64,000 bases of DNA from the human T2T-CHM13v2.0 reference genome, Homo sapiens, in assembly GCF_009914755.1 (NCBI RefSeq), contig NC_060926.1. One strand, written 5' to 3'. Below the pieces are notes generated by a model. That model did not search any database. It saw only the letters and a list, made by a program, of their open reading frames with translations, and was not told the origin of the DNA. This document shows positions 51,471-60,689 of the stretch, piece after piece. The position numbers and the translations under genes were made by a program. Position 1 is the stretch's first letter; each line of letters begins with the position of its first letter.

Positions 51471-52917
51471 ACACACACACACACAAAACTGTAGTCCTCT
51501 GCAATATTACTGAGTGAGGATTGCCCGAGACTTGAGAGGCAGTTAGGCAGCCCCCTTCATTCTGACTGTGGTGGTCCTCTCCTAATTGAGACTGAGAATT
51601 CTCTAGATGTGCCTGTTAAATATTTGCATGGCCCCGGAGTGCCATTCAGAGCTGGATTTTGTTTCTGATGGCTCAGTTGCCCTTGAGGCTGCTCTTGGGT
51701 TCCCAGTGCTTGTGTTGCCAAGTTGTGTGAAGTGTGCAGAGCTGCTCTGGGTTTGCAGAGCTGGCTTCATGTGTTGTGGAGAGGGCCCTGAGATGTTGGT
51801 GACTCATTCAAAGCCACTTTATGTCTGCTTCTACATCTTGCTCAATCTGCTAGGCTTACTACCATCTAAGTCCTAGAAGGCCTATCAACTCTCCCCAGGA
51901 AATGTAGAACCCAAAGACATAGGCACATACTTTCATTTCCTTTTTAAATGAATACAGTCTCTTTAAAAGTTTTATTTGAATACCGATCCATGGTTTGCAC
52001 AAGCCATTTGAATTTTAAACAGATGTGTGTGCAAAGCTGGGAGTCAGCATTGCATGTCTCAGTCAAGTTTTATAGTCATTGACTTTTAGGGTTACAGCCT
52101 GGTCTCATAGCTGTGCCTTGGGTGGAAAGGCTGGTAAGGACTTCGATGTACTTTCCTGTCCAGAGTTTTGAGACTTTAGCCAGGACTAGGGCAGCTTTCT
52201 GGGTGTCCAGTGGAGGGCCACGTCATTCGACCGTTGCTATGGGAAAAACCCATGAGCTCTCTCATTCCAAAGTTTACCGATTGCCAAATACTTGGGTGTG
52301 TGGTATTTGGAAAAAATATTTAGTGATGCAGTGATTCTTTGAAGAGGTGTCCTCTAATGTTTACTTTTTAAAATGGTAAACCAATTTTAATATTGTTCAT
52401 ACCTAGCTAAGACTGAATTAGATTATTTAAACATATTTAAACATCATCTCTGTAAGTGAATGGGAAAATAGGAACCAGACCAAACCCCTATTATTGAACG
52501 CTAAGAGAAATGGATTTTTTTAAAAACCGAAATAATTAAAATCTAGTGTTACATGTGAGTCTAGGGACTGGATTTACTATTTGGCAACTACATATTTTGT
52601 TGGCAATAAACTTATTGTCTAAAAGAAAATGCGTAGAGCCAAGATAGAGGCCCAAGTAAAGAAGAAAGTGTGATCCTAAGGGAAATTGGTTTATTGAGGA
52701 GAATGTATCTTCATATACTATTTGTAAGTTTTCTGTATGGAGGATTTCTCCCTTTTCACCCTTGTATTTATTTAATCGTTTAGTTATAGTACCTTAGCCT
52801 CATTTGTTTTATTCTTCAGGTTATATTATTATTTTCTTGCTCAAATTGTTCCATCTTTAGTCATTGTAAGCTCTTTCAGGTTGACTCCCGGATCAAAATA
52901 TAGTTTTTAAAACAGGC

Positions 52918-53208
<291 letters not shown>

Positions 53209-53214
53209 TAAAAG

Positions 53215-53501
53215 ATTTCAGTTTTTAAGGGCAGTTTTAGGTTCACAGCAAAATTGGAGAGGAAGGTCCAGACTTCCTATATACCCTGGCCCCTGCAACC
53301 CCTCTCCCCGTCCCATAGGCATAGCTTCTCCCATTATCAACATCTACCAGAGTGGTACATTTGCTACAAATGATGAACCTACATTGACACATCATTATTC
53401 CCCAAAGTCCTAGGGTTCACCCTTGGTTTTGTACATTCTGTGGGTTTGGACAAATGTATAATGACATCTATCTATCATTATAGTATCATAATGAGTATTA
53501 T
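53215..53501 (-). mobile_element. L1MC-like 3' end, host of the ERV; continues at 58030-58070
   Basis: 'gcagttttaggttcacagcaaaattg..gtacattctgtgggtttggacaaatgtataatgacat..tagtatcata' continues as 'cactgtcttaaaaatcctctgtgctct' after the ERV. Confidence 0.8.
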
Positions 53502-53578
53502 TGAAAGGTGACAGCGTGCTGGCAGCCCTCGCAGCCCTCGCTCGCTCTCGGTGCTTCCTCGGCCTCGGCGCCCAGTCT
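53502..53578 (+). mobile_element. Inverted 77-bp LTR12 U3 terminus
   Basis: TGAAAGGTGACAGCGTGCTGGCAGCCC... is 70/77 identical to the reverse complement of 57953-58029. Confidence 0.93.
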
Positions 53579-54862
53579 ACTAGATGAGTATTTGCCGTCT
53601 GGGTTTCCTTGATTAGAGGGGCCTGGCTATTTTGCTGTATCCGGGGATCCATAGTCGGCAAAAGCCAGTAATTCCAAGGAACCCCCACAAACTGTTTTAA
53701 TGTCTTAGGGCAAGGATAAGCCAGTATAGGCTTTATTCATTCCTTGCTGAGGGCCCTGGTCCCTCTGGCTAAGATTAGGCCTAGATATTTGACCTGCTGT
53801 AGGCAAAGCAGGGCCTTCGACCTAGACACCTTGTACCCTTGATTAGCTAGAAAGTTCAAGAGATCTAGAGTAGCCTGCTGGCACGAGGCTTCCAAACTGG
53901 TAGCCAAAATTAAATCATCCACATATTGAAGGACCAGAGTGCCTGGACTTGAGAAGTGGCCTAGATCTTGGGCCAGTGCCTGACCAAATAACAGGTGAGG
54001 GCTATCCCTAAACCCCTGGGGCAAGACCATCCACATAAGTTGGGACGTGTGATCTGTGGGATCCTCAAAGGCAAAGAGGAACTGGGAGTCAGAGTGCAGG
54101 AGAATACAGAAGAAGGATCCTCGAAGTCCAGAACTGTGAACCATTCTGTTTCCTCTGGTATTTGAGAGACCAGGGTATAGGGGTTGGGTACAACTGGATA
54201 TAGAGGAATTACTGCCTCACTGATGAGTCTAAGATCTTGCACTAGTCTCCACTGACCGTTCGGTTTTTGTACTCCTAGAATTGGGGTGTTGCAGGGACTG
54301 CTGCATTTCCTTACTCAGCCTTGAGCTTTCAAATGTTTAATAATATTCTGTAATCCTTTATGAGCTTCAGGCCTTAAGGGATATTGCCTTTGATAAGGAA
54401 AAATGGTGGGATCTTTTAACCTGATTTGGACTGGGCGGGCATTTTTTAGCCTTCCAAATTGTCCTTCCAATGCCCAGACTTCAGGGTTGATTCCCTCCTC
54501 AAGTAGGGGACAACAAATGGGTAACTTGTTCCCCATATTCATGTAGATAATAGCTCCAGCCTTGGCTAATATATCCCTCCCTAATAAGGTGTGGGACTTA
54601 CAGGCATAACAAGAAAGGCATGTGAAAAGAGCAAAGTCTCCCAATTAAAACTGAGGAGGTGTGAGAAACACCTGGTTACAGGCTGTCCCAGGATTCCTTG
54701 GGTGGTAACGGACCTTGAGGACAGTCGTCCAGGACAGGAGATTAACACTGAGAAGGCCGCACCAGTGTCCAGGAGGAAGTCAATTTCCTGGCCCTCAGTA
54801 GTTAAATCTACCCGGGGCTCAGTGAGGGTGATGACATGAGCCGGTGTTTGCCCCAGGCACCC
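53571..54862 (-). pseudogene. HERV9 pro-pol remnant (protease and RT, frameshifted, truncated before RNase H and integrase)
   Basis: Protease EIDFLLDTGAAFSVL (~54740-54790), LLGRD, QDLR, LPQGFRDSP, LQYVDDL, YLG. Confidence 0.92.
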
Positions 54863-56325
54863 TCAGTCCTGTTGTTGGATCATCTGGTTGGGGGCTTCTG
54901 ACCCAGGGAACCTTCATCCTCTGGAGCAGTGCACCTTCCAGTGATTGCCTCGGCATAGTGGACATGGACGAGGGGGCAGCTTTTTCTCACTGGACAGTCT
55001 TTTTTAAGGTGTCCTAGTAAACCACACTGATAACAAGCCCCACCAGATGATTGGCCTGCTCCATTCTCTGTCCTCTCTGAACCACCAAGGTTTGTTTGTC
55101 TGAGGGCCATGACTAAGGCTGCAGCCTTTCTCTGATCTCGCTTTTCCTTTTGGGCCTGTTCCTCTTGGTCCTTATTATAGAACACCGAGGTTGCAAGGTT
55201 TAACAATGCCTCTAGATTTTGTTCAGGGCCCAGGGCTTGCCTTTGGAGCTTTCTCCTGATATCTGTGGCTGATTGGGTATTAAACTTATCTTTTAGAATC
55301 AATTGACCCTCGAGTGATTCGGGTGACAGGGGAGTATGTTTTCTTAAGGCCTCCCATAGCCACTCGAGGAAGGCAGAAGAATTTTCTTCCTTTCCCTGAG
55401 TTATGGTGGACATCATTGAATAATTCATGGGCTTTTTTTCTAATTCTCCTTAGTCCTTCTAGAACACAGGTCAACAGATGTTTACAACTCCAGTCCCCAT
55501 GATCTGAGTCAAGGTCCCAGTGGGGATCCATACTGGGGATAGCTTGCTGACCAGTAGGGAATTTGTCCCTTTCTTTGGCTGTCATTCTATCATTTACTTG
55601 ACTAAGATACCAGGTGTCTCCAAACTCTTGGGCTGCAGCTAAAGCCGCATTCTTTTCGTTAAAGGCCAGGGTTTGATCTAACAGTAGCATGACATCTCTC
55701 CAAGTGAGGTCAAAGGTTTGCCCTAGACCCTGTAGGACATCTATGTACCTATCAGGATCATCTGAAAACTTCCCCAGGTCTGCCTTCATCTGCTTTAAAT
55801 CAGAGCAGGAGAAGGGGACATGTACCTGGGTAGGGCCAAATTCCCCTCCCCCTACAGCTTGAAGGGGACATAACCCATAGCCCGTGGGTTTTTGTGGTCC
55901 TTTGGAGATTTCTTTGCTTATTTCCTTCTGGGCAGGGGAGATGAGAGGATGATTATCATTAATAGGAAGGGGAGCTATAGGGAGGCTAGGATATGGGGGT
56001 AAGCTGAGAGGTCCTCCTGTGGGATGTAACTTGTAAGCTTTGCATAGTTGTGTATTCTCCCTCAATGAAAAGAAAGCTTGGACATAAGGTATTTCACTCC
56101 ATTTGCCTTCCCTCTTACAGAAAAAGTCAAGCTGCAGGATGATAGTATTGTAATTTGTACTTCCCTCAGGTGGCCGTTTTTCCCCATCAGAGAGAGAATA
56201 TTGGGGCCAAGCCGTAGCGCAGAAAAAAATGAGCCACCTCTTTTTCAGGGTTTGTGGGTCGAATTGGTCCCAATAGCTTAGGATGCATTTCAAGGGTGAG
56301 CCTGTGATGCCTGAGTGTTTCCCAT
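54863..56325 (-). pseudogene. HERV9 gag remnant (frameshifted)
   Basis: ATG GGA AAC ACT CAG (MGNTQ) at 56325, [14 protein letters not shown] major-homology-like region, zinc knuckle CYQCGLLGHLKKDC, QQQD-TGA stop at 54863-54865. Confidence 0.92.
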
Positions 56326-56370
56326 CTGAAAGACAAAACCGCCTGCAGTTTTGTTTTGTTTTGTTTGCAT

Positions 56371-56546
56371 TTATTTGCTTTTGGCTTTGTGGCTTTCGGT
56401 TTTCTTTGGTAACAGAATGGCCTGGATGTTAGGCAAAATGCCGCCCTGGGCGATGGTGACTTTGCCCAGCAGCTTGTTTAGTTCCCTGTTGTTGCAAATT
56501 GCCAGCTGGAGGTGATGAGGGATGATGCGCGTCTTCTTCTTGTCCC
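56371..56546 (-). pseudogene. Histone H2A C-terminal fragment (H2AC20/HIST2H2AC-like) inside the ERV leader; may be the annotated H2ACP2 (unverified recollection)
   Basis: [56 protein letters not shown]. By my alignment to remembered H2AC20 it is 49/56 identical, including the distinctive [11 protein letters not shown] end. No ATG, poly(A) or histone stem-loop. Confidence 0.9.
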
Positions 56547-56559
56547 TTCGTGGTTGCAA
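56542..56559 (-). other. Retroviral primer-binding site, tRNA-Arg type
   Basis: TTGCAACCACGAAGGGAC, 3 nt after the LTR end; canonical form TGGCGACCACGAAGGGAC. Confidence 0.88.
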
Positions 56560-56562
56560 AAA

Positions 56563-58029
56563 TGTGTCCAGATTTGGCGGGTTCTTGGTCTCACTGACTT
56601 CAAGAGTGAAGCCGCGGACCCTCGCAGTGAGTGTTATAGTTCTTAAAGGTGGCGTGTCCGGAGTTTGTTCCTTCTGATGTTCAGATGTGTTTGGAGTTTC
56701 TTCCTTCTGGGTTTGTGGTCTCGCTGGCTCAGGAGTGAAGATGCAGACCTTCGTGGTGAGTGTTACAGCTCATAAAGGCAGTGTGGACCCAAACAGTGAG
56801 CAGCAGCAAGATTTATTGCAAAGAGCAAAAGAACAAAGCTGCCACAGTGTGGAAGGGGACCCGGACGGGTTGCCACTGCTGGCTCAGGCAGCCTCCTTTT
56901 ATTCTCTTATCCGGCCCCACCCACATCCTGCCGATTGGTCCATTTTACAGAGAGCCAGTTGGTCTGTTTTACAGAGAGCCGATTGGTCCGTTTTGACAGG
57001 GTGCTGATTGGTGCGTTTACAATCCCTGAGCTAGACACAAAAGTTCTCCACGTCCCCACTAGATTAGCTAGATACAGAGTGTCGATTGGTATATTTACAA
57101 ACCATGAGCTAGACACAGAGTGCTGATTGGTGCATTTACAAACCTTGAACTAGAGACAGAGTGCTGATTGGTGTATTCACAATCCCTTAGCTAGACATAA
57201 TGATCCAAGTCCCCACCAGATTAGCTAGATACAGAGTGCCGATTGGTGCATCCACAAATCCTGAGCTAGAGACAGGGTGCTAATTGGTGTGTTTACAAAC
57301 CTTGAGCTAGATACAGAGTGCTCATTGGTGTATTTACAATCCCTTACTAGACATAAAGGTTCTCCAAGTCCCCACTAGACTCAGGAGCCCAGCTGGCTTC
57401 ACCCAGTGGGTCTCCCACTGGGGCCGCAGGTCGAGCTGCCTGCCAGTCCCGCACCATGCGCCTGCACTCCTCAGCCCTTGGGCAGTCGATGGGACTGGGC
57501 GCCGTGGAGCAGGGGGCAGCTCTCATCGGGGAGGCTCAGGCCGCACAGGAGCCCACGGTGGGGTGGGGGAGACTCAGGCATGGTGGGCTGCAGGTACCGA
57601 GCCCTGCCCCACAGGGAGGCAGCTAAGGCCTGGCGAGAAATAGAGCACAGAGCTGGTGGGCCAGCACTGCTGGGGGACCTGGCGCACCCTCTGCAGCTGC
57701 TGGCCCAGGTGCTAAGCCCCTCACTGCCCGGGGCCGGCACGGCTGGCCGGCAGCTCTGAGTGCGGGGCCGCCAAGCCCACGCTCACCGGGAACTCTAGCT
57801 GGCCTGCAAGCACCACGTGCAGCCCCAGTTCCCGCCCATGCCTCTCCCTCCACACCTCCCCGCAAGCCGAGGGAGGCGGCTCCGGCCTCGGCCAGCCCAG
57901 AGAATGGCTCCCATGGTGCAGCGGCGGGCTGAAGGGCTCCTCAAGCACGGCCAGAATGGGCGCCAAGGCCGAGGAGACGCCAAGAGCGAGCGAGGGCTGC
58001 GAGGGCTGCCAGCACGCTGTCACCTCTCA
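56563..58029 (-). mobile_element. LTR12 (C/D-type) 5' LTR, 1467 bp
   Basis: Starts TGAGAGGTGACAGCGTGCTGG and ends CCAAATCTGGACACA; GC-rich U3, tandem CCAAT repeats, R-region AATAAA at 56812-56817. Confidence 0.95.
56889..57350 (-). promoter_or_regulatory. LTR12 enhancer/promoter: tandem CCAAT (NF-Y) and GATA repeats with AATAAAA TATA-equivalent
   Basis: About 9 ATTGG motifs in ~41-bp-type repeats (56931-57330); 'GGATAAGAGAATAAAAGGAGGCTG' on the - strand at ~56889-56911. Confidence 0.75.
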
Positions 58030-60689
58030 ATATCACTGTCTTAAAAATCCTCTGTGCTCTACCTCATCATAAAAGTAAGAAACCTAGGAGTGTTTCTCTC
58101 TTTGGTTTCCAATTACTTTGGCCTGGGATAAACTGGGACTTCTCAATTAATTGCGGGCCATTTAACAGTTAATGAGAAGCATTTCATGGTCTTTCTAAAA
58201 CTCTTGTAGACTAATAATAGCTATGATGAAGTATATAGAAATTCATTAATATTTATAAAAGTAATAAACATTGAGTAATAGAATTATGTTAGCATTAAAA
58301 TTCAATTATTAATTACATTATTATTTCAACTAATTTTGCAAAAGACCATTGACTATAGGTTCTTAGAGGCTAAAAGAAAATTAGAAGTCTACCACCCCAC
58401 CTCCTTTGTTTTACAGATGAGAAGCTAAAGCTTCCAATGTTTAAGTGATTTGCCTAATCGAAGCCAGGACCAAAACTCATCTAATAACGTCTAAACGTAG
58501 TACCTTCCACTGAATCAAAGAGTTGGGTCTTCCTGTTTTCCCTTTTTCTCCCCCCTTCTTTTCAAGAATTAATATTCTGAAGTATTTTCCAGATATGGAA
58601 TCACCAATTTATAATGATAAATATGCAAGAAAATCAAGATAAATTTTGTGTATTATCTTACATTTGTGTTTTAAATTGATAGCTGCTATCAATGGCATGT
58701 TAAAAAATACTTTAGTGAATTTCATATTTTGATACAGCTTTCAGCACAGATCAGCAATTTCTCTCAAGTTTTTTGATTATACGTTTGATTCCAGAAATTC
58801 TGTTTCACTGGTACTAATTCAATGTGTTTACTCTTCTTTTGAGAATGGTACCTTACTATAAATGTCGCAGGAGAAAAAACATTGCCATTTAAGCTACAGA
58901 AGTGCTGAATATGACCTGCACGTGTTGAAATGGCAGTGCTGCGGGAGAGGTTGGAAAATGTGTGATGCTGTCTTATAATTTTAGCTCGGGTTTATGCAAA
59001 TGTGGGCATTTATCTTGTTATTTTCACAGCCATACACATTTACTGCCGCTTGAAGTTATCCTTACAAGTGATCTTCATTAAATTAAGTTTGTCTTACAGG
59101 AGCAGAAGGAAAAGGATGATGTGAATTTCACCTTTAAAAGGCAGCACTAGGCAATGCAACATTTAAGAAGTGTTTTTTGCCTGTGCCCATAAAAAGCTAT
59201 ACCACTTTGTTGATGGATTTGCTATTTTGTGTCCTATTAAGTATAAAATGTGACCATATATTTTGGATTCCAAGGTCTTTTCTGGTTTGTTGAACACATT
59301 AGTGCTTATGATGATGATTTAAATTAGTTTTAATGTACTTGGGTAGTCAAGCATACAGTGCTTTGAAGCCACTAAGGGAGAAAAAGAAGAGATATTTCAG
59401 CCTTCCCCAGTAATGAGACCCATAAATCAAAAGAACGAACATGGAAACTTCAAGCAAGCCTAGGGATCTAATTTCAAACACCTTAAAAGAGACTCCTTTT
59501 TTGGTTTAGGCTTGCCATGTCCGTGGTGCCCAGTGGAAGGGCTGAGCTGAAAAATTTGGATAAAAAACAGAGAACCTCTATAGGATTAAAACAATGGAGC
59601 CAGACGCTCTCAGTGTTAGCCTTTGGATTTGAGAGGCTTGTGTTTAAGAAGTCTGGGCCTGAAGAGGTGGAAATACAGGGGGTCAGATTCAGTTACAGAT
59701 ACATACATGTTCAAATACCAAATACATGTCATTTAAGGGAACCATAAGATGACTTTGCAAGAGGGAGACTTTTTTCCATGAAATAGTTATAGTAGACTTT
59801 TCAAACTAACTCTGAAGTGAAATTTTGAGCATAAAAGCTTTTCAGCTGACAAAGAGAAATGGCATGAATGTCTGAGAAAAAAACCAGACACATCCCTAAA
59901 ACAACAGAGAAATGCCTTCTAGACTTTAGATACATCTATGGCAAATAGGAAGACAAGCTATTTCTAGACCTCTGGCAAGAAGACTGGCCTTTTACTCAGT
60001 TCTTAAAGAAAATAGCTAAGAGAAGTTTGGAATAAGAAATCCAAGTTCTTCTACATGTTGTTGGTTCGGGCAATGTCAAAGATTTTTTTCATAGCTTGTC
60101 TCTTGGAGGCTGACCTTGGACTGTGCACATGGACCTATTTTTAAACTGTAGACTCCATTTCACTCCCACATATTTTACCCTTCTACTGTTCAAGTGCTAA
60201 AACCAGGGATTATTTAAGTTAGCTTACTCTCTGTTGCAGGCTGGGATGAGAGTTTAGGATTCCAAAATTGTGTTAGAAGTGGGTTGAGAGGAAATAAATG
60301 TGGAGAGGCTAAATGACAGTTGTGTTATGGATCCTTTTCCTTTTAATTTCCCCCTATTTTTAAAAAACTCACTGGAGTCCTAGAATACACACAGATAATT
60401 GACGTATCTCTAGGGGTATTTGCATTCAAGGTAAGTTTCTTTTGATTTTAGTAACATGTGGCTTTTGATTATTATGGAGGACAATTTAAGCCCAAAGTAT
60501 TATTTTGCCATTTAGGTTTGTATCTTAATTTGGGCTGTGCTGAAATCATCTTGGGGGGTGTGTGTGTATGTATGTGTGTGTGTGTTTGGGGGGGATGTGT
60601 GTGTATGATATATGTGGGTAGGTGAGATATGGAGGGAGGCAGGGAGGGAACTTTTAATACCGTTCGTTGTACTGAATTTTAAATTCAGA

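What the first reader, a model, noticed from the sequence alone, without database searches (positions are those of the whole stretch)
53498..58033. Provirus with two inward-facing U3 ends: inverted terminal repeats instead of direct LTRs
Seen: the left end (53502-53578, +) is a 77-bp copy of the LTR12 U3 start, inverted relative to the full LTR at the right (70/77 identical, several differences at CpGs). No 3' LTR, PPT, env, integrase or RNase H is present. At the junction pol reads CATCTAGTAGACTGGG and passes into antisense U3 through AGA(A/C)TGGG, an ~8-nt overlap with LTR 57953-57960. Both termini are precise TG/CA ends, the flanks are TTAT and ATAT, and removing the element plus 4 bp rejoins the host L1MC. 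Known: class I ERVs such as HERV9 make 4-bp duplications and normally pair a U3 end with a U5 end. Inference: RT jumped from pol onto plus-strand U3 DNA, and integrase supplied in trans joined two U3 ends. The inverted ends could also form a pre-mRNA panhandle or allow inversion of the interior.
Basis: partly seen in the sequence, partly recalled or inferred. Interest (0 to 1): 0.8.

Follow-up and report, generated by a model that had tools for sequence, protein, structure and literature searches.

The report
HERV9 provirus with two U3 ends
A truncated ancient retrovirus copy in an LTBP1 intron carries the same LTR tip (the U3 start) at both ends, facing inwards, most likely because a faulty reverse-transcription product was still inserted by the viral integrase; it is a rare molecular fossil with no sign of a present function.

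Summary
A HERV9 element lies on the minus strand at 53502-58029: a full LTR12, a tRNA-Arg primer site, gag, protease and part of RT. It then ends in an inverted copy of U3 nt 1-77 (70 of 77 identical to its own LTR). Both tips start at the canonical LTR12 first base. Seven L1M paralogues show the host sequence is continuous once the element and one 4-bp copy (TTAT/ATAT) are removed. Sixteen of 20 ordinary LTR12s have perfect 4-bp duplications. No 3' remnants lie in the window or 30 kb beyond. New here: about 1.2 kb of leader is replaced by 212 nt of H2A mRNA, with one junction exactly at the primer site's 3' end. Best reading (~0.8): an aberrant reverse-transcription product with two U3 ends, joined by integrase. 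Main rival: a replication-based rearrangement after integration, using the near-palindromic duplication. Primate orthologues, not available here, would decide. No precedent found in print.

The parts
53498..53501 (.). Left copy of the 4-bp target-site duplication (TTAT), inside a host L1M 3' region
   Evidence: seven L1M paralogues have 4 nt here, where the window has TTAT plus ATAT split by the element.
53502..53578 (+). Inverted copy of LTR12 U3 nt 1-77. It starts at the canonical TG and faces inwards.
   Evidence: 70 of 77 identical to the element's own LTR. It is 91-95% identical to other LTR12 starts, and every hit begins at query base 1.
53571..53578 (.). Crossover zone: 8 nt shared by pol (sense AGAATGGG in other copies) and antisense U3 nt 70-77. 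It reads AGACTGGG here, one private change.
53579..54400 (-). pol, reverse-transcriptase part only. It is cut about 64 codons after the end of the RVT_1 match, and the frames are interrupted.
   Evidence: RVT_1 E=4.2e-14, about 53770-54168; 91-94% identical and collinear with other HERV9 copies down to 53559-53579.
54593..54820 (-). Retroviral aspartyl protease
   Evidence: RVP E=6e-5.
54991..56325 (-). gag, with capsid p30 and a zinc knuckle. The start codon is at 56325-56323 and the frame is interrupted.
   Evidence: Gag_p30 E=3.3e-12, zf-CCHC E=4.6e-5; collinear with 5 of 6 other copies over 56366-54745 at 92-94%.
56335..56546 (-). Captured 3' part of a histone H2A mRNA, comprising the C-terminal coding part and about 25 nt of 3'UTR, in sense with the provirus. 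It replaces about 1.2 kb of leader. It is annotated as H2ACP2.
   Evidence: 91% over 212 nt to G000:C1:149011327-149011537. Histone_H2A_C E=2.7e-17. None of 36 other HERV9 hits carries it.
56542..56559 (-). Primer-binding site, 18 nt, complementary to the 3' end of tRNA-Arg. Its last 5 nt (GGGAC) are shared with H2A and form the junction.
   Evidence: alignment; the pattern hits the 3' ends of 4 tRNA-Arg genes, and the window matches 16 of 18.
56563..58029 (-). Complete 5' LTR (LTR12, 1467 bp), with U3 nt 1 at 58029
57953..57960 (.). The 8 nt in the full LTR (AGAATGGG on the + strand, U3 nt 70-77) that match pol at the breakpoint
58030..58033 (.). Right copy of the 4-bp target-site duplication (ATAT)

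Best explanation
This is a dead-end product of one faulty round of HERV9 reverse transcription that the particle's integrase nevertheless inserted into the germ line.

Plus-strand DNA primed at the polypurine tract starts exactly at U3 nt 1. At U3 nt 70-77 this plus-strand U3 DNA and the pol region came together through an 8-nt match (AGAATGGG in pol, CCCATTCT in U3). There are two ways this could have happened. Either the short nascent U3 plus strand left its template and primed on pol RNA, running towards gag. Or a growing pol plus strand copied the U3 plus strand to its 5' end. Both give the same double-stranded DNA: 5' LTR, PBS, gag, protease, part of RT, then inverted U3 1-77. Both of its tips are U3 attachment ends.

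Integrase processed and joined both tips in a concerted reaction. This gave TG...CA ends and the 4-bp duplication typical of the family.

The same molecule carries two more non-homologous strand transfers: viral leader to H2A mRNA, and H2A back to the 3' end of the primer-binding site. They point to a reaction that had lost its normal templates.

Shown: the structure, the microhomologies, the precise tips and the 4-bp host duplication. Inferred: that the junctions arose during reverse transcription, that integrase joined both ends, and that all three switches happened in one cycle.
For: 1. Both tips coincide to the base with the canonical LTR12 start, in 29 of 29 copies compared.
2. Host L1M continuity closes with exactly 4 bp (7 of 7 paralogues). 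Ordinary LTR12 insertions show perfect 4-bp duplications in 16 of 20, and 3 of 4 identical in 2 more.
3. There is an 8-nt microhomology at the pol/U3 junction. It is present in pol of other copies (5 of 11 exact, 3 of 11 one mismatch) and in this element's own LTR.
4. The interior is collinear with other HERV9 copies up to the junction. No env, integrase, RNase H or 3' LTR piece lies in the 64-kb window or the next 30 kb.
5. The 7 arm differences split about evenly between the arms (3-4 private to each), as expected if the arms were identical at insertion.
6. The same element has a second rare anomaly with a reverse-transcription signature. [quoted passage not shown] That junction has 5 nt of overlap, and the other junction has an A/C-rich overlap. 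H2A is absent from 36 of 36 other HERV9 5' regions listed.
7. Passages of PMC5041404 describe insertions where only one end is joined by integrase. These show truncated viral ends and large host duplications or deletions, unlike the clean ends here.
Against: - No orthologous locus could be examined, so the time order (before or after integration) is inferred, not shown.
- The duplication is imperfect (TTAT versus ATAT).
- ATAT is a palindrome, which is exactly what a replication-based rearrangement after integration would need to mimic this structure.
- Three non-homologous switches in one cycle are improbable if independent. The H2A capture may instead date from an earlier cycle.
- I found no printed precedent for a natural provirus joined through two U3 ends. 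That integrases accept U3/U3 donors in vitro is recalled, not seen in a call.
- The junction reads AGACTGGG, matching neither parent exactly.
Confidence: 0.8

Rival explanations
1. Replication-based rearrangement after integration (FoSTeS/MMBIR type; the mechanism is recalled). A normal provirus integrated with an ATAT duplication. Later, a nascent strand copied the left flank and ended in ATAT. It re-annealed to the palindromic right ATAT on the other strand and copied 77 nt of U3 backwards. It then returned to pol through the 8-nt match. This deleted the 3' LTR, env, integrase and RNase H.
For: It gives the same product. The duplication is (nearly) palindromic and an 8-nt microhomology lies at the inner junction. 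The sequence alone cannot exclude it.
Against: - It needs a breakpoint exactly at the LTR/host boundary on both sides, which the integration model gives for free.
- Palindromic duplications are common for this family anyway: 4 of 16 perfect ones, ATAT three times and CTAG once. So palindromy is weak evidence.
- It does not explain why the same element also carries the H2A capture with reverse-transcription signatures.
Confidence: 0.1
2. Two independent LTR12/HERV9 insertions in opposite orientation, followed by a deletion between U3 nt 77 of one and pol of the other.
For: LTR12 copies are abundant (1291 first-look candidates). The 8-nt match could also guide a deletion.
Against: The host L1M is continuous across the whole element with a single 4-bp overlap. 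Two insertions would therefore have had to hit the very same 4 bp. No second duplication or intervening host DNA is present.
Confidence: 0.03
3. L1-mediated retrotransposition of a HERV9 transcript with twin priming (mechanism recalled), giving an inverted end.
For: Twin priming makes inversions. The target is A/T-rich.
Against: - There is no poly(A).
- The duplication is 4 bp, as for integrase.
- The element starts at U3 nt 1 rather than at R.
- Both tips are the exact LTR terminus.
Confidence: 0.01
4. One end was joined by integrase and the other by host repair, or the structure is an assembly artefact.
For: One-ended integrations are documented for HIV and ASLV (passages of PMC5041404).
Against: Those events leave truncated viral ends and large host duplications or deletions. 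Here both ends are exact and the duplication is canonical. The hub's RefSeq table independently annotates H2ACP2 at the coordinates I found.
Confidence: 0.03

Closest known systems
Canonical HERV9 (ERV9) provirus with LTR12 LTRs
   Same: LTR12 5' LTR, tRNA-Arg PBS, gag-protease-RT at 91-94% identity to other copies, TG...CA ends, 4-bp duplication.
   Different: There is no 3' LTR, PPT, env, integrase or RNase H. The 3' end is an inverted U3 nt 1-77. The leader is replaced by H2A mRNA sequence.
Defective proviruses made by aberrant strand transfer (HIV-1 deletions, asymmetric LTRs, inversions)
   Same: Non-homologous or misaligned template switches during reverse transcription give truncated proviruses that still integrate. 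This comes from passages of PMC12657518 and PMC9278108.
   Different: Those passages describe deletions, 3' LTR deletions and internal inversions that keep a U3 end and a U5 end. Neither paper, in the passages I saw, describes a provirus bounded by two U3 ends.
Aberrant one-ended integrations (ASLV, HIV with integrase inhibitors or mutants)
   Same: A viral DNA with an abnormal end still becomes a provirus (passages of PMC5041404).
   Different: There the abnormal end is joined by host enzymes, with truncated viral DNA and large host rearrangements. Here both ends are exact and the duplication is the normal 4 bp.
LTR-mediated retroposition (Tan et al. 2016, PMC5131818)
   Same: The H2A piece fits it. 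A partial mRNA copy replaces an internal part of an LTR element, in sense, with microsimilarity at both junctions.
   Different: This applies only to the H2A part, not to the two-U3 architecture. That paper reports three human cases. H2A and HERV9 do not occur in the 9 of 10 supplementary files that could be searched, and the single LTR12 match there is a mouse RLTR12B element.
DIRS retrotransposons, which have inverted LTRs by design
   Same: Inverted terminal repeats around a retroelement interior (search listing).
   Different: They are a different order, use a tyrosine recombinase, and the inverted ends are a family trait. Here it is a one-off defect of a family with direct LTRs.

Membership tests
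HERV9/ERV9 provirus (class I, LTR12) | LTR of the LTR12 family with canonical TG...CA termini | tested here: met
   the arms and the full LTR align from base 1 with 29 other LTR12 copies. The U5 end reads ...CACA, as in 19 of 20.
HERV9/ERV9 provirus (class I, LTR12) | Primer-binding site for tRNA-Arg next to U5 | tested here: met
   18 nt at 56542-56559 match the 3' end of tRNA-Arg(CCG) plus CCA at 16 of 18.
HERV9/ERV9 provirus (class I, LTR12) | gag-pro-pol interior homologous to other copies | tested here: met
   91-94% identity, collinear, with Gag_p30, zf-CCHC, RVP and RVT_1.
HERV9/ERV9 provirus (class I, LTR12) | Two direct LTRs, with PPT, RNase H, integrase and env | tested here: not met
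   none present. The 3' end is an inverted 77-nt U3 piece.
Integrase-mediated insertion | Both viral tips exact, and a target duplication of the family's length | tested here: met
   4-bp overlap, 3 of 4 identical; 16 of 20 LTR12 have perfect 4-bp duplications; exact tips.
Integrase-mediated insertion | One U3 end paired with one U5 end | tested here: not met
   both ends are U3 starts.
L1-mediated processed copy / twin priming | Poly(A) tail, long variable duplication, start at the transcript 5' end (R) | tested here: not met
   no poly(A), a 4-bp duplication, and the element starts at U3 nt 1.
LTR-mediated retrocopy (H2A part only) | A partial mRNA copy replaces an internal part of the LTR element, with microsimilarity at the junctions | tested here: met
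   1180-1263 nt of leader (5 copies) are replaced by 212 nt of H2A. The overlaps are 5 nt (GGGAC) and up to 32 nt (imperfect, A/C-rich).
LTR-mediated retrocopy (H2A part only) | Loss of introns shows an RNA origin | not testable with these tools
   The matching genomic H2A locus is collinear with the copy. Replication-dependent histone genes have no introns (recalled).

The most novel reading that the evidence does not exclude
All three odd junctions come from one reverse-transcription reaction on damaged templates. A displaced 77-nt nascent plus strand re-primed DNA synthesis on the orphaned 5' half of the genome. Synthesis then bridged through a co-packaged H2A mRNA to the strong-stop DNA. 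The HERV9 integrase then carried out a fully concerted U3/U3 integration in the germ line. This would be natural evidence that a gammaretrovirus-like integrase needs no U5 end in vivo. It would also suggest that proviruses with two like ends form a searchable, so far uncounted class of ERV fossils.
Probability: 0.4. Interest if true: 0.7.

Novelty: new variant of a known kind. Interest (0 to 1): 0.55.

Why it matters
It is a clean natural record of two things usually seen only in cell culture or in vitro. One is a template switch that involves plus-strand U3 DNA. The other is integrase joining two identical (U3) ends with a normal target duplication.

It gives a concrete search image for genome-wide scans in any species: an ERV interior bounded by an LTR and an inverted LTR start, with the family's duplication length. 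Such scans would measure how often like-ended products integrate.

The H2A capture adds a human case of LTR-mediated retroposition of an intronless gene. Screens based on intron loss cannot detect such cases.

For the host locus nothing functional is shown. The element is an old, broken, antisense intronic insertion in LTBP1.

Tried and rejected
- **Rfam scan of 52500-59000:** no family at gathering score.
- **Direction of the jump:** I compared 12 nt on either side of the 8-nt core between pol copies and antisense U3. The result was 1-2 of 12 upstream and 4-5 of 12 downstream, against about 3 expected. This is not informative (10 of 11 copies were found by the anchor and L017 was missed).
- **Second copy of the pol/U3 junction:** a 101-nt query across the junction gave only the locus itself at full length. 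The other 39 scored hits (of 720 candidates) stop by query base 76.
- **Another short inverted U3 next to a HERV9 interior:** I checked the 9 of 29 fetched LTR12 loci that lacked a U5 end in range. None has one. They are long or truncated LTRs, or a 5' LTR with an internal deletion.
- **Different source for the left arm:** several foreign LTR12 copies are closer to the left arm (94-95%) than its own LTR is (91%). However, the differences are private changes on both arms and CpG decay. With 77 nt this cannot separate sources.
- **A true genome-wide scan for like-ended proviruses:** not possible with the tools, because searches score only the 40 best hits.
- **Literature:** searches gave no U3/U3 provirus. 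A search for H2ACP2 found 0 papers. No paper held LTBP1 together with ERV9, HERV9 or LTR12 terms. Many older retrovirology papers are outside the searched library.
Full report
**Observation.** The repeat finder returns one long inverted pair: 53494-53578 against 57953-58037, 85 nt, 89% complementary. The next best inverted pairs in the same 6.5 kb are 20-26 nt at 72-80%. Within the element the two arms are identical at 70 of 77 positions. The element proper is 53502-58029 and begins TG and ends CA. The flanks are TTAT (53498-53501) and ATAT (58030-58033).

**Anatomy, provirus sense on the minus strand.**
- The 5' LTR is an LTR12 of 1467 bp (58029 down to 56563).
- After a 3-nt spacer comes an 18-nt primer-binding site (56559-56542). 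A pattern built from it hits the 3' ends of four tRNA-Arg genes. The window copy matches tRNA-Arg(CCG) plus CCA at 16 of 18.
- Pfam finds Histone_H2A_C, Gag_p30, zf-CCHC, RVP and RVT_1 in that order. It finds no RNase H, integrase or env. The frames are broken into at least six pieces.
- The interior is collinear with other HERV9 copies at 91-94% identity, from 56366 to 54745 (5 of 6 copies) and from about 55400 to 53559-53579 (6 of 6 copies).
- Those six copies carry 1.5 kb beyond the breakpoint. None of that sequence, and no further LTR12 piece, occurs in the 64-kb window or the next 30 kb to the right.
- The last RT residues matched by RVT_1 lie about 64 codons before the break, so pol is cut in the thumb/connection part.

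**The tips and the host site.** I searched the genome with the left arm. All 39 non-self hits start at query base 1 and end at base 73-78. In an alignment of the 29 fetched copies, both arms begin at the same first base as all 29.

The left flank is the 3' part of an old L1M, with about 80% identity to many paralogues. Seven fetched paralogues run without a gap across the point where the element sits. Window left GAGTA-TTAT and window right ATAT-CACTG both align to paralogue GAGTA-GTTT-CACTG. The two flanks therefore overlap by exactly 4 bp.

To see what this family normally does, I located both ends of LTR12 copies in the fetched loci. Twenty of 29 had both ends in range. Of these, 16 have a perfect 4-bp duplication, 2 have 3 of 4, one has none, and one has its flank cut off. 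ATAT occurs three times among the 16. So the element sits in a single, canonical integrase-type target site.

**The inner junction.** Eleven other HERV9 copies were aligned across the breakpoint.
- Five read AGAATGGG there (L013, L015, L018, L019, L020).
- Three differ at one base.
- Two differ at two bases.
- L017 differs at more.

The antisense strand of this element's own U3 reads AGAATGGG at nt 70-77 (57953-57960). Among the 29 LTR12 copies, which were chosen for likeness to the left arm, nt 74 is T in 7 and C in 22. This LTR belongs to the minority that gives the full 8-nt match. The junction itself reads AGACTGGG, one change that neither parent has.

**A second anomaly in the same element.** Between the primer-binding site and gag, five other copies carry 1180-1263 nt of leader. 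Here that stretch is replaced by 212 nt (56546-56335) that match a histone H2A gene at G000:C1:149011327-149011537 at 91%. The piece covers the C-terminal coding part and about 25 nt of 3'UTR, and stops about 20 nt short of the histone stem-loop. It is in sense with the provirus. These are exactly the coordinates RefSeq calls H2ACP2.
- The upstream junction lies in GGGAC. [quoted passage not shown]
- The downstream junction lies in an A/C-rich stretch shared imperfectly by the H2A 3'UTR and the HERV9 leader (56366-56335).
- None of the 36 other HERV9 5' regions listed carries H2A.
- This fits LTR-mediated retroposition as described by Tan et al. (passages of PMC5131818). Their human list has three cases. 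H2A and HERV9 are absent from the 9 of 10 supplementary files I could search.
- The parent gene's name (H2A type 2-C, chr1q21 cluster) is recalled, not tested.

**Mechanism.** Plus-strand DNA primed at the polypurine tract begins exactly at U3 nt 1 (established retrovirology). An exact inverted U3 tip is what results if that plus-strand DNA is either the template or the primer in a switch with pol.
- Version B: a nascent 77-nt plus strand anneals to pol RNA and primes synthesis towards gag. A normal strong-stop DNA then completes the other strand.

Both versions give the same duplex with two U3 attachment ends. Similarity flanking the core does not tell them apart. Integrase carried in the particle then joined both ends. 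Integrase 'in trans' is therefore unnecessary.

The seven arm differences are 3-4 private changes on each arm, and three are at CpGs. This is as expected for arms that were identical at insertion. Their 9% divergence is similar to the 9% between the H2A piece and its parent. Both suggest an old event, roughly 10-20 million years or more by a recalled neutral rate, though CpG decay inflates this.

The co-occurrence of two rare anomalies in one element, one of them placed exactly at the strong-stop DNA end, argues that the pol/U3 junction was also made by reverse transcriptase. Whether all three switches happened in the same cycle is inference.

**Rivals.**
- The serious one is a replication-based rearrangement of a once normal provirus. 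ATAT is a palindrome, so a nascent strand ending in the left duplication could re-anneal on the other strand at the right duplication. It could then copy 77 nt of U3 and return to pol through the 8-nt match. The product would be identical. I rate it about 0.1. It needs breakpoints exactly at both LTR/host boundaries. Palindromic duplications are common in this family anyway (4 of 16). It also leaves the H2A anomaly as a coincidence.
- Two independent insertions plus a deletion would require two hits on the same 4 bp.
- L1 twin priming is contradicted by the lack of poly(A), the 4-bp duplication and the U3 nt 1 tips.
- One-ended integration leaves truncated ends and large host changes (passages of PMC5041404), unlike the clean ends here.

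**Comparison with print.**
- Passages of PMC12657518 and PMC9278108 document deletions, asymmetric LTRs and inversions made by aberrant strand transfer in HIV-1. In what I read, neither describes a provirus bounded by two U3 ends.
- PMC5210030 mentions in one sentence a guppy foamy-like ERV with 'inverted LTR', without analysis.
- PMC12711578 shows that inverted LTR pairs can form Z-RNA. This bears only loosely on the panhandle idea.
- Seven searches found no U3/U3 provirus. H2ACP2 occurs in no searched paper.
- Much of the older retrovirology literature is outside the library, so 'not in print' is limited to these searches.

**Function and verdict.** The arms would pair strongly as RNA (-159.8 kcal/mol for 81 nt). 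Nothing shows that they do pair, and 77 bp at 91% is a poor substrate for inversion. The element is a broken, antisense intronic fossil.

It is a new variant of a known kind (defective proviruses from aberrant strand transfer) rather than a new kind. It is interesting mainly as a search image and as natural evidence on integrase end requirements.

Noticed in passing
window 56335-56546 (minus strand): The annotated pseudogene H2ACP2 is not a free-standing pseudogene. It is a piece of H2A mRNA captured inside the HERV9 provirus. It replaces about 1.2 kb of leader, and one junction sits exactly at the 3' end of the tRNA-Arg primer-binding site. None of 36 other HERV9 5' regions listed carries it.
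   Followed up: yes
window 56134-56635: The RefSeq 'enhancer' feature in the hub's table covers the gag start, the H2A piece, the PBS and the U5 end of this provirus. I did not examine what assay it rests on.
   Followed up: no
L044 (G000:C7:145603193-145606270): In another HERV9 provirus, only about 198 nt of the 5' LTR (the U3 start) match this LTR, and the gag start follows about 1.15 kb further on. This suggests a large internal deletion of the LTR.
   Followed up: no
LTR12 loci L036-L064: The 4-bp duplications of ordinary LTR12 insertions are often A/T-rich and palindromic: ATAT in 3 and CTAG in 1 of 16 perfect duplications. This hints at a weak target preference.
   Followed up: partly
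window 56326-56366 and HERV9 copies L025, L026, L028: The HERV9 leader just upstream of gag has an A/C-rich run followed by a GGCGGTTTTGTCTTTCAGA-like stretch. MAFFT lined this up with the H2A 3'UTR and histone stem-loop region. A paper seen only in a search listing (PMC11417402) links U7 snRNA, the histone 3'-end factor, to LTR12 repression. Whether the two facts are connected was not examined.
   Followed up: no
window 56995-57390: The U3 of the full LTR holds the family's internal tandem repeats. There are five copies of a unit spaced mostly 41 nt apart (family D1). This is ordinary for LTR12.
   Followed up: no
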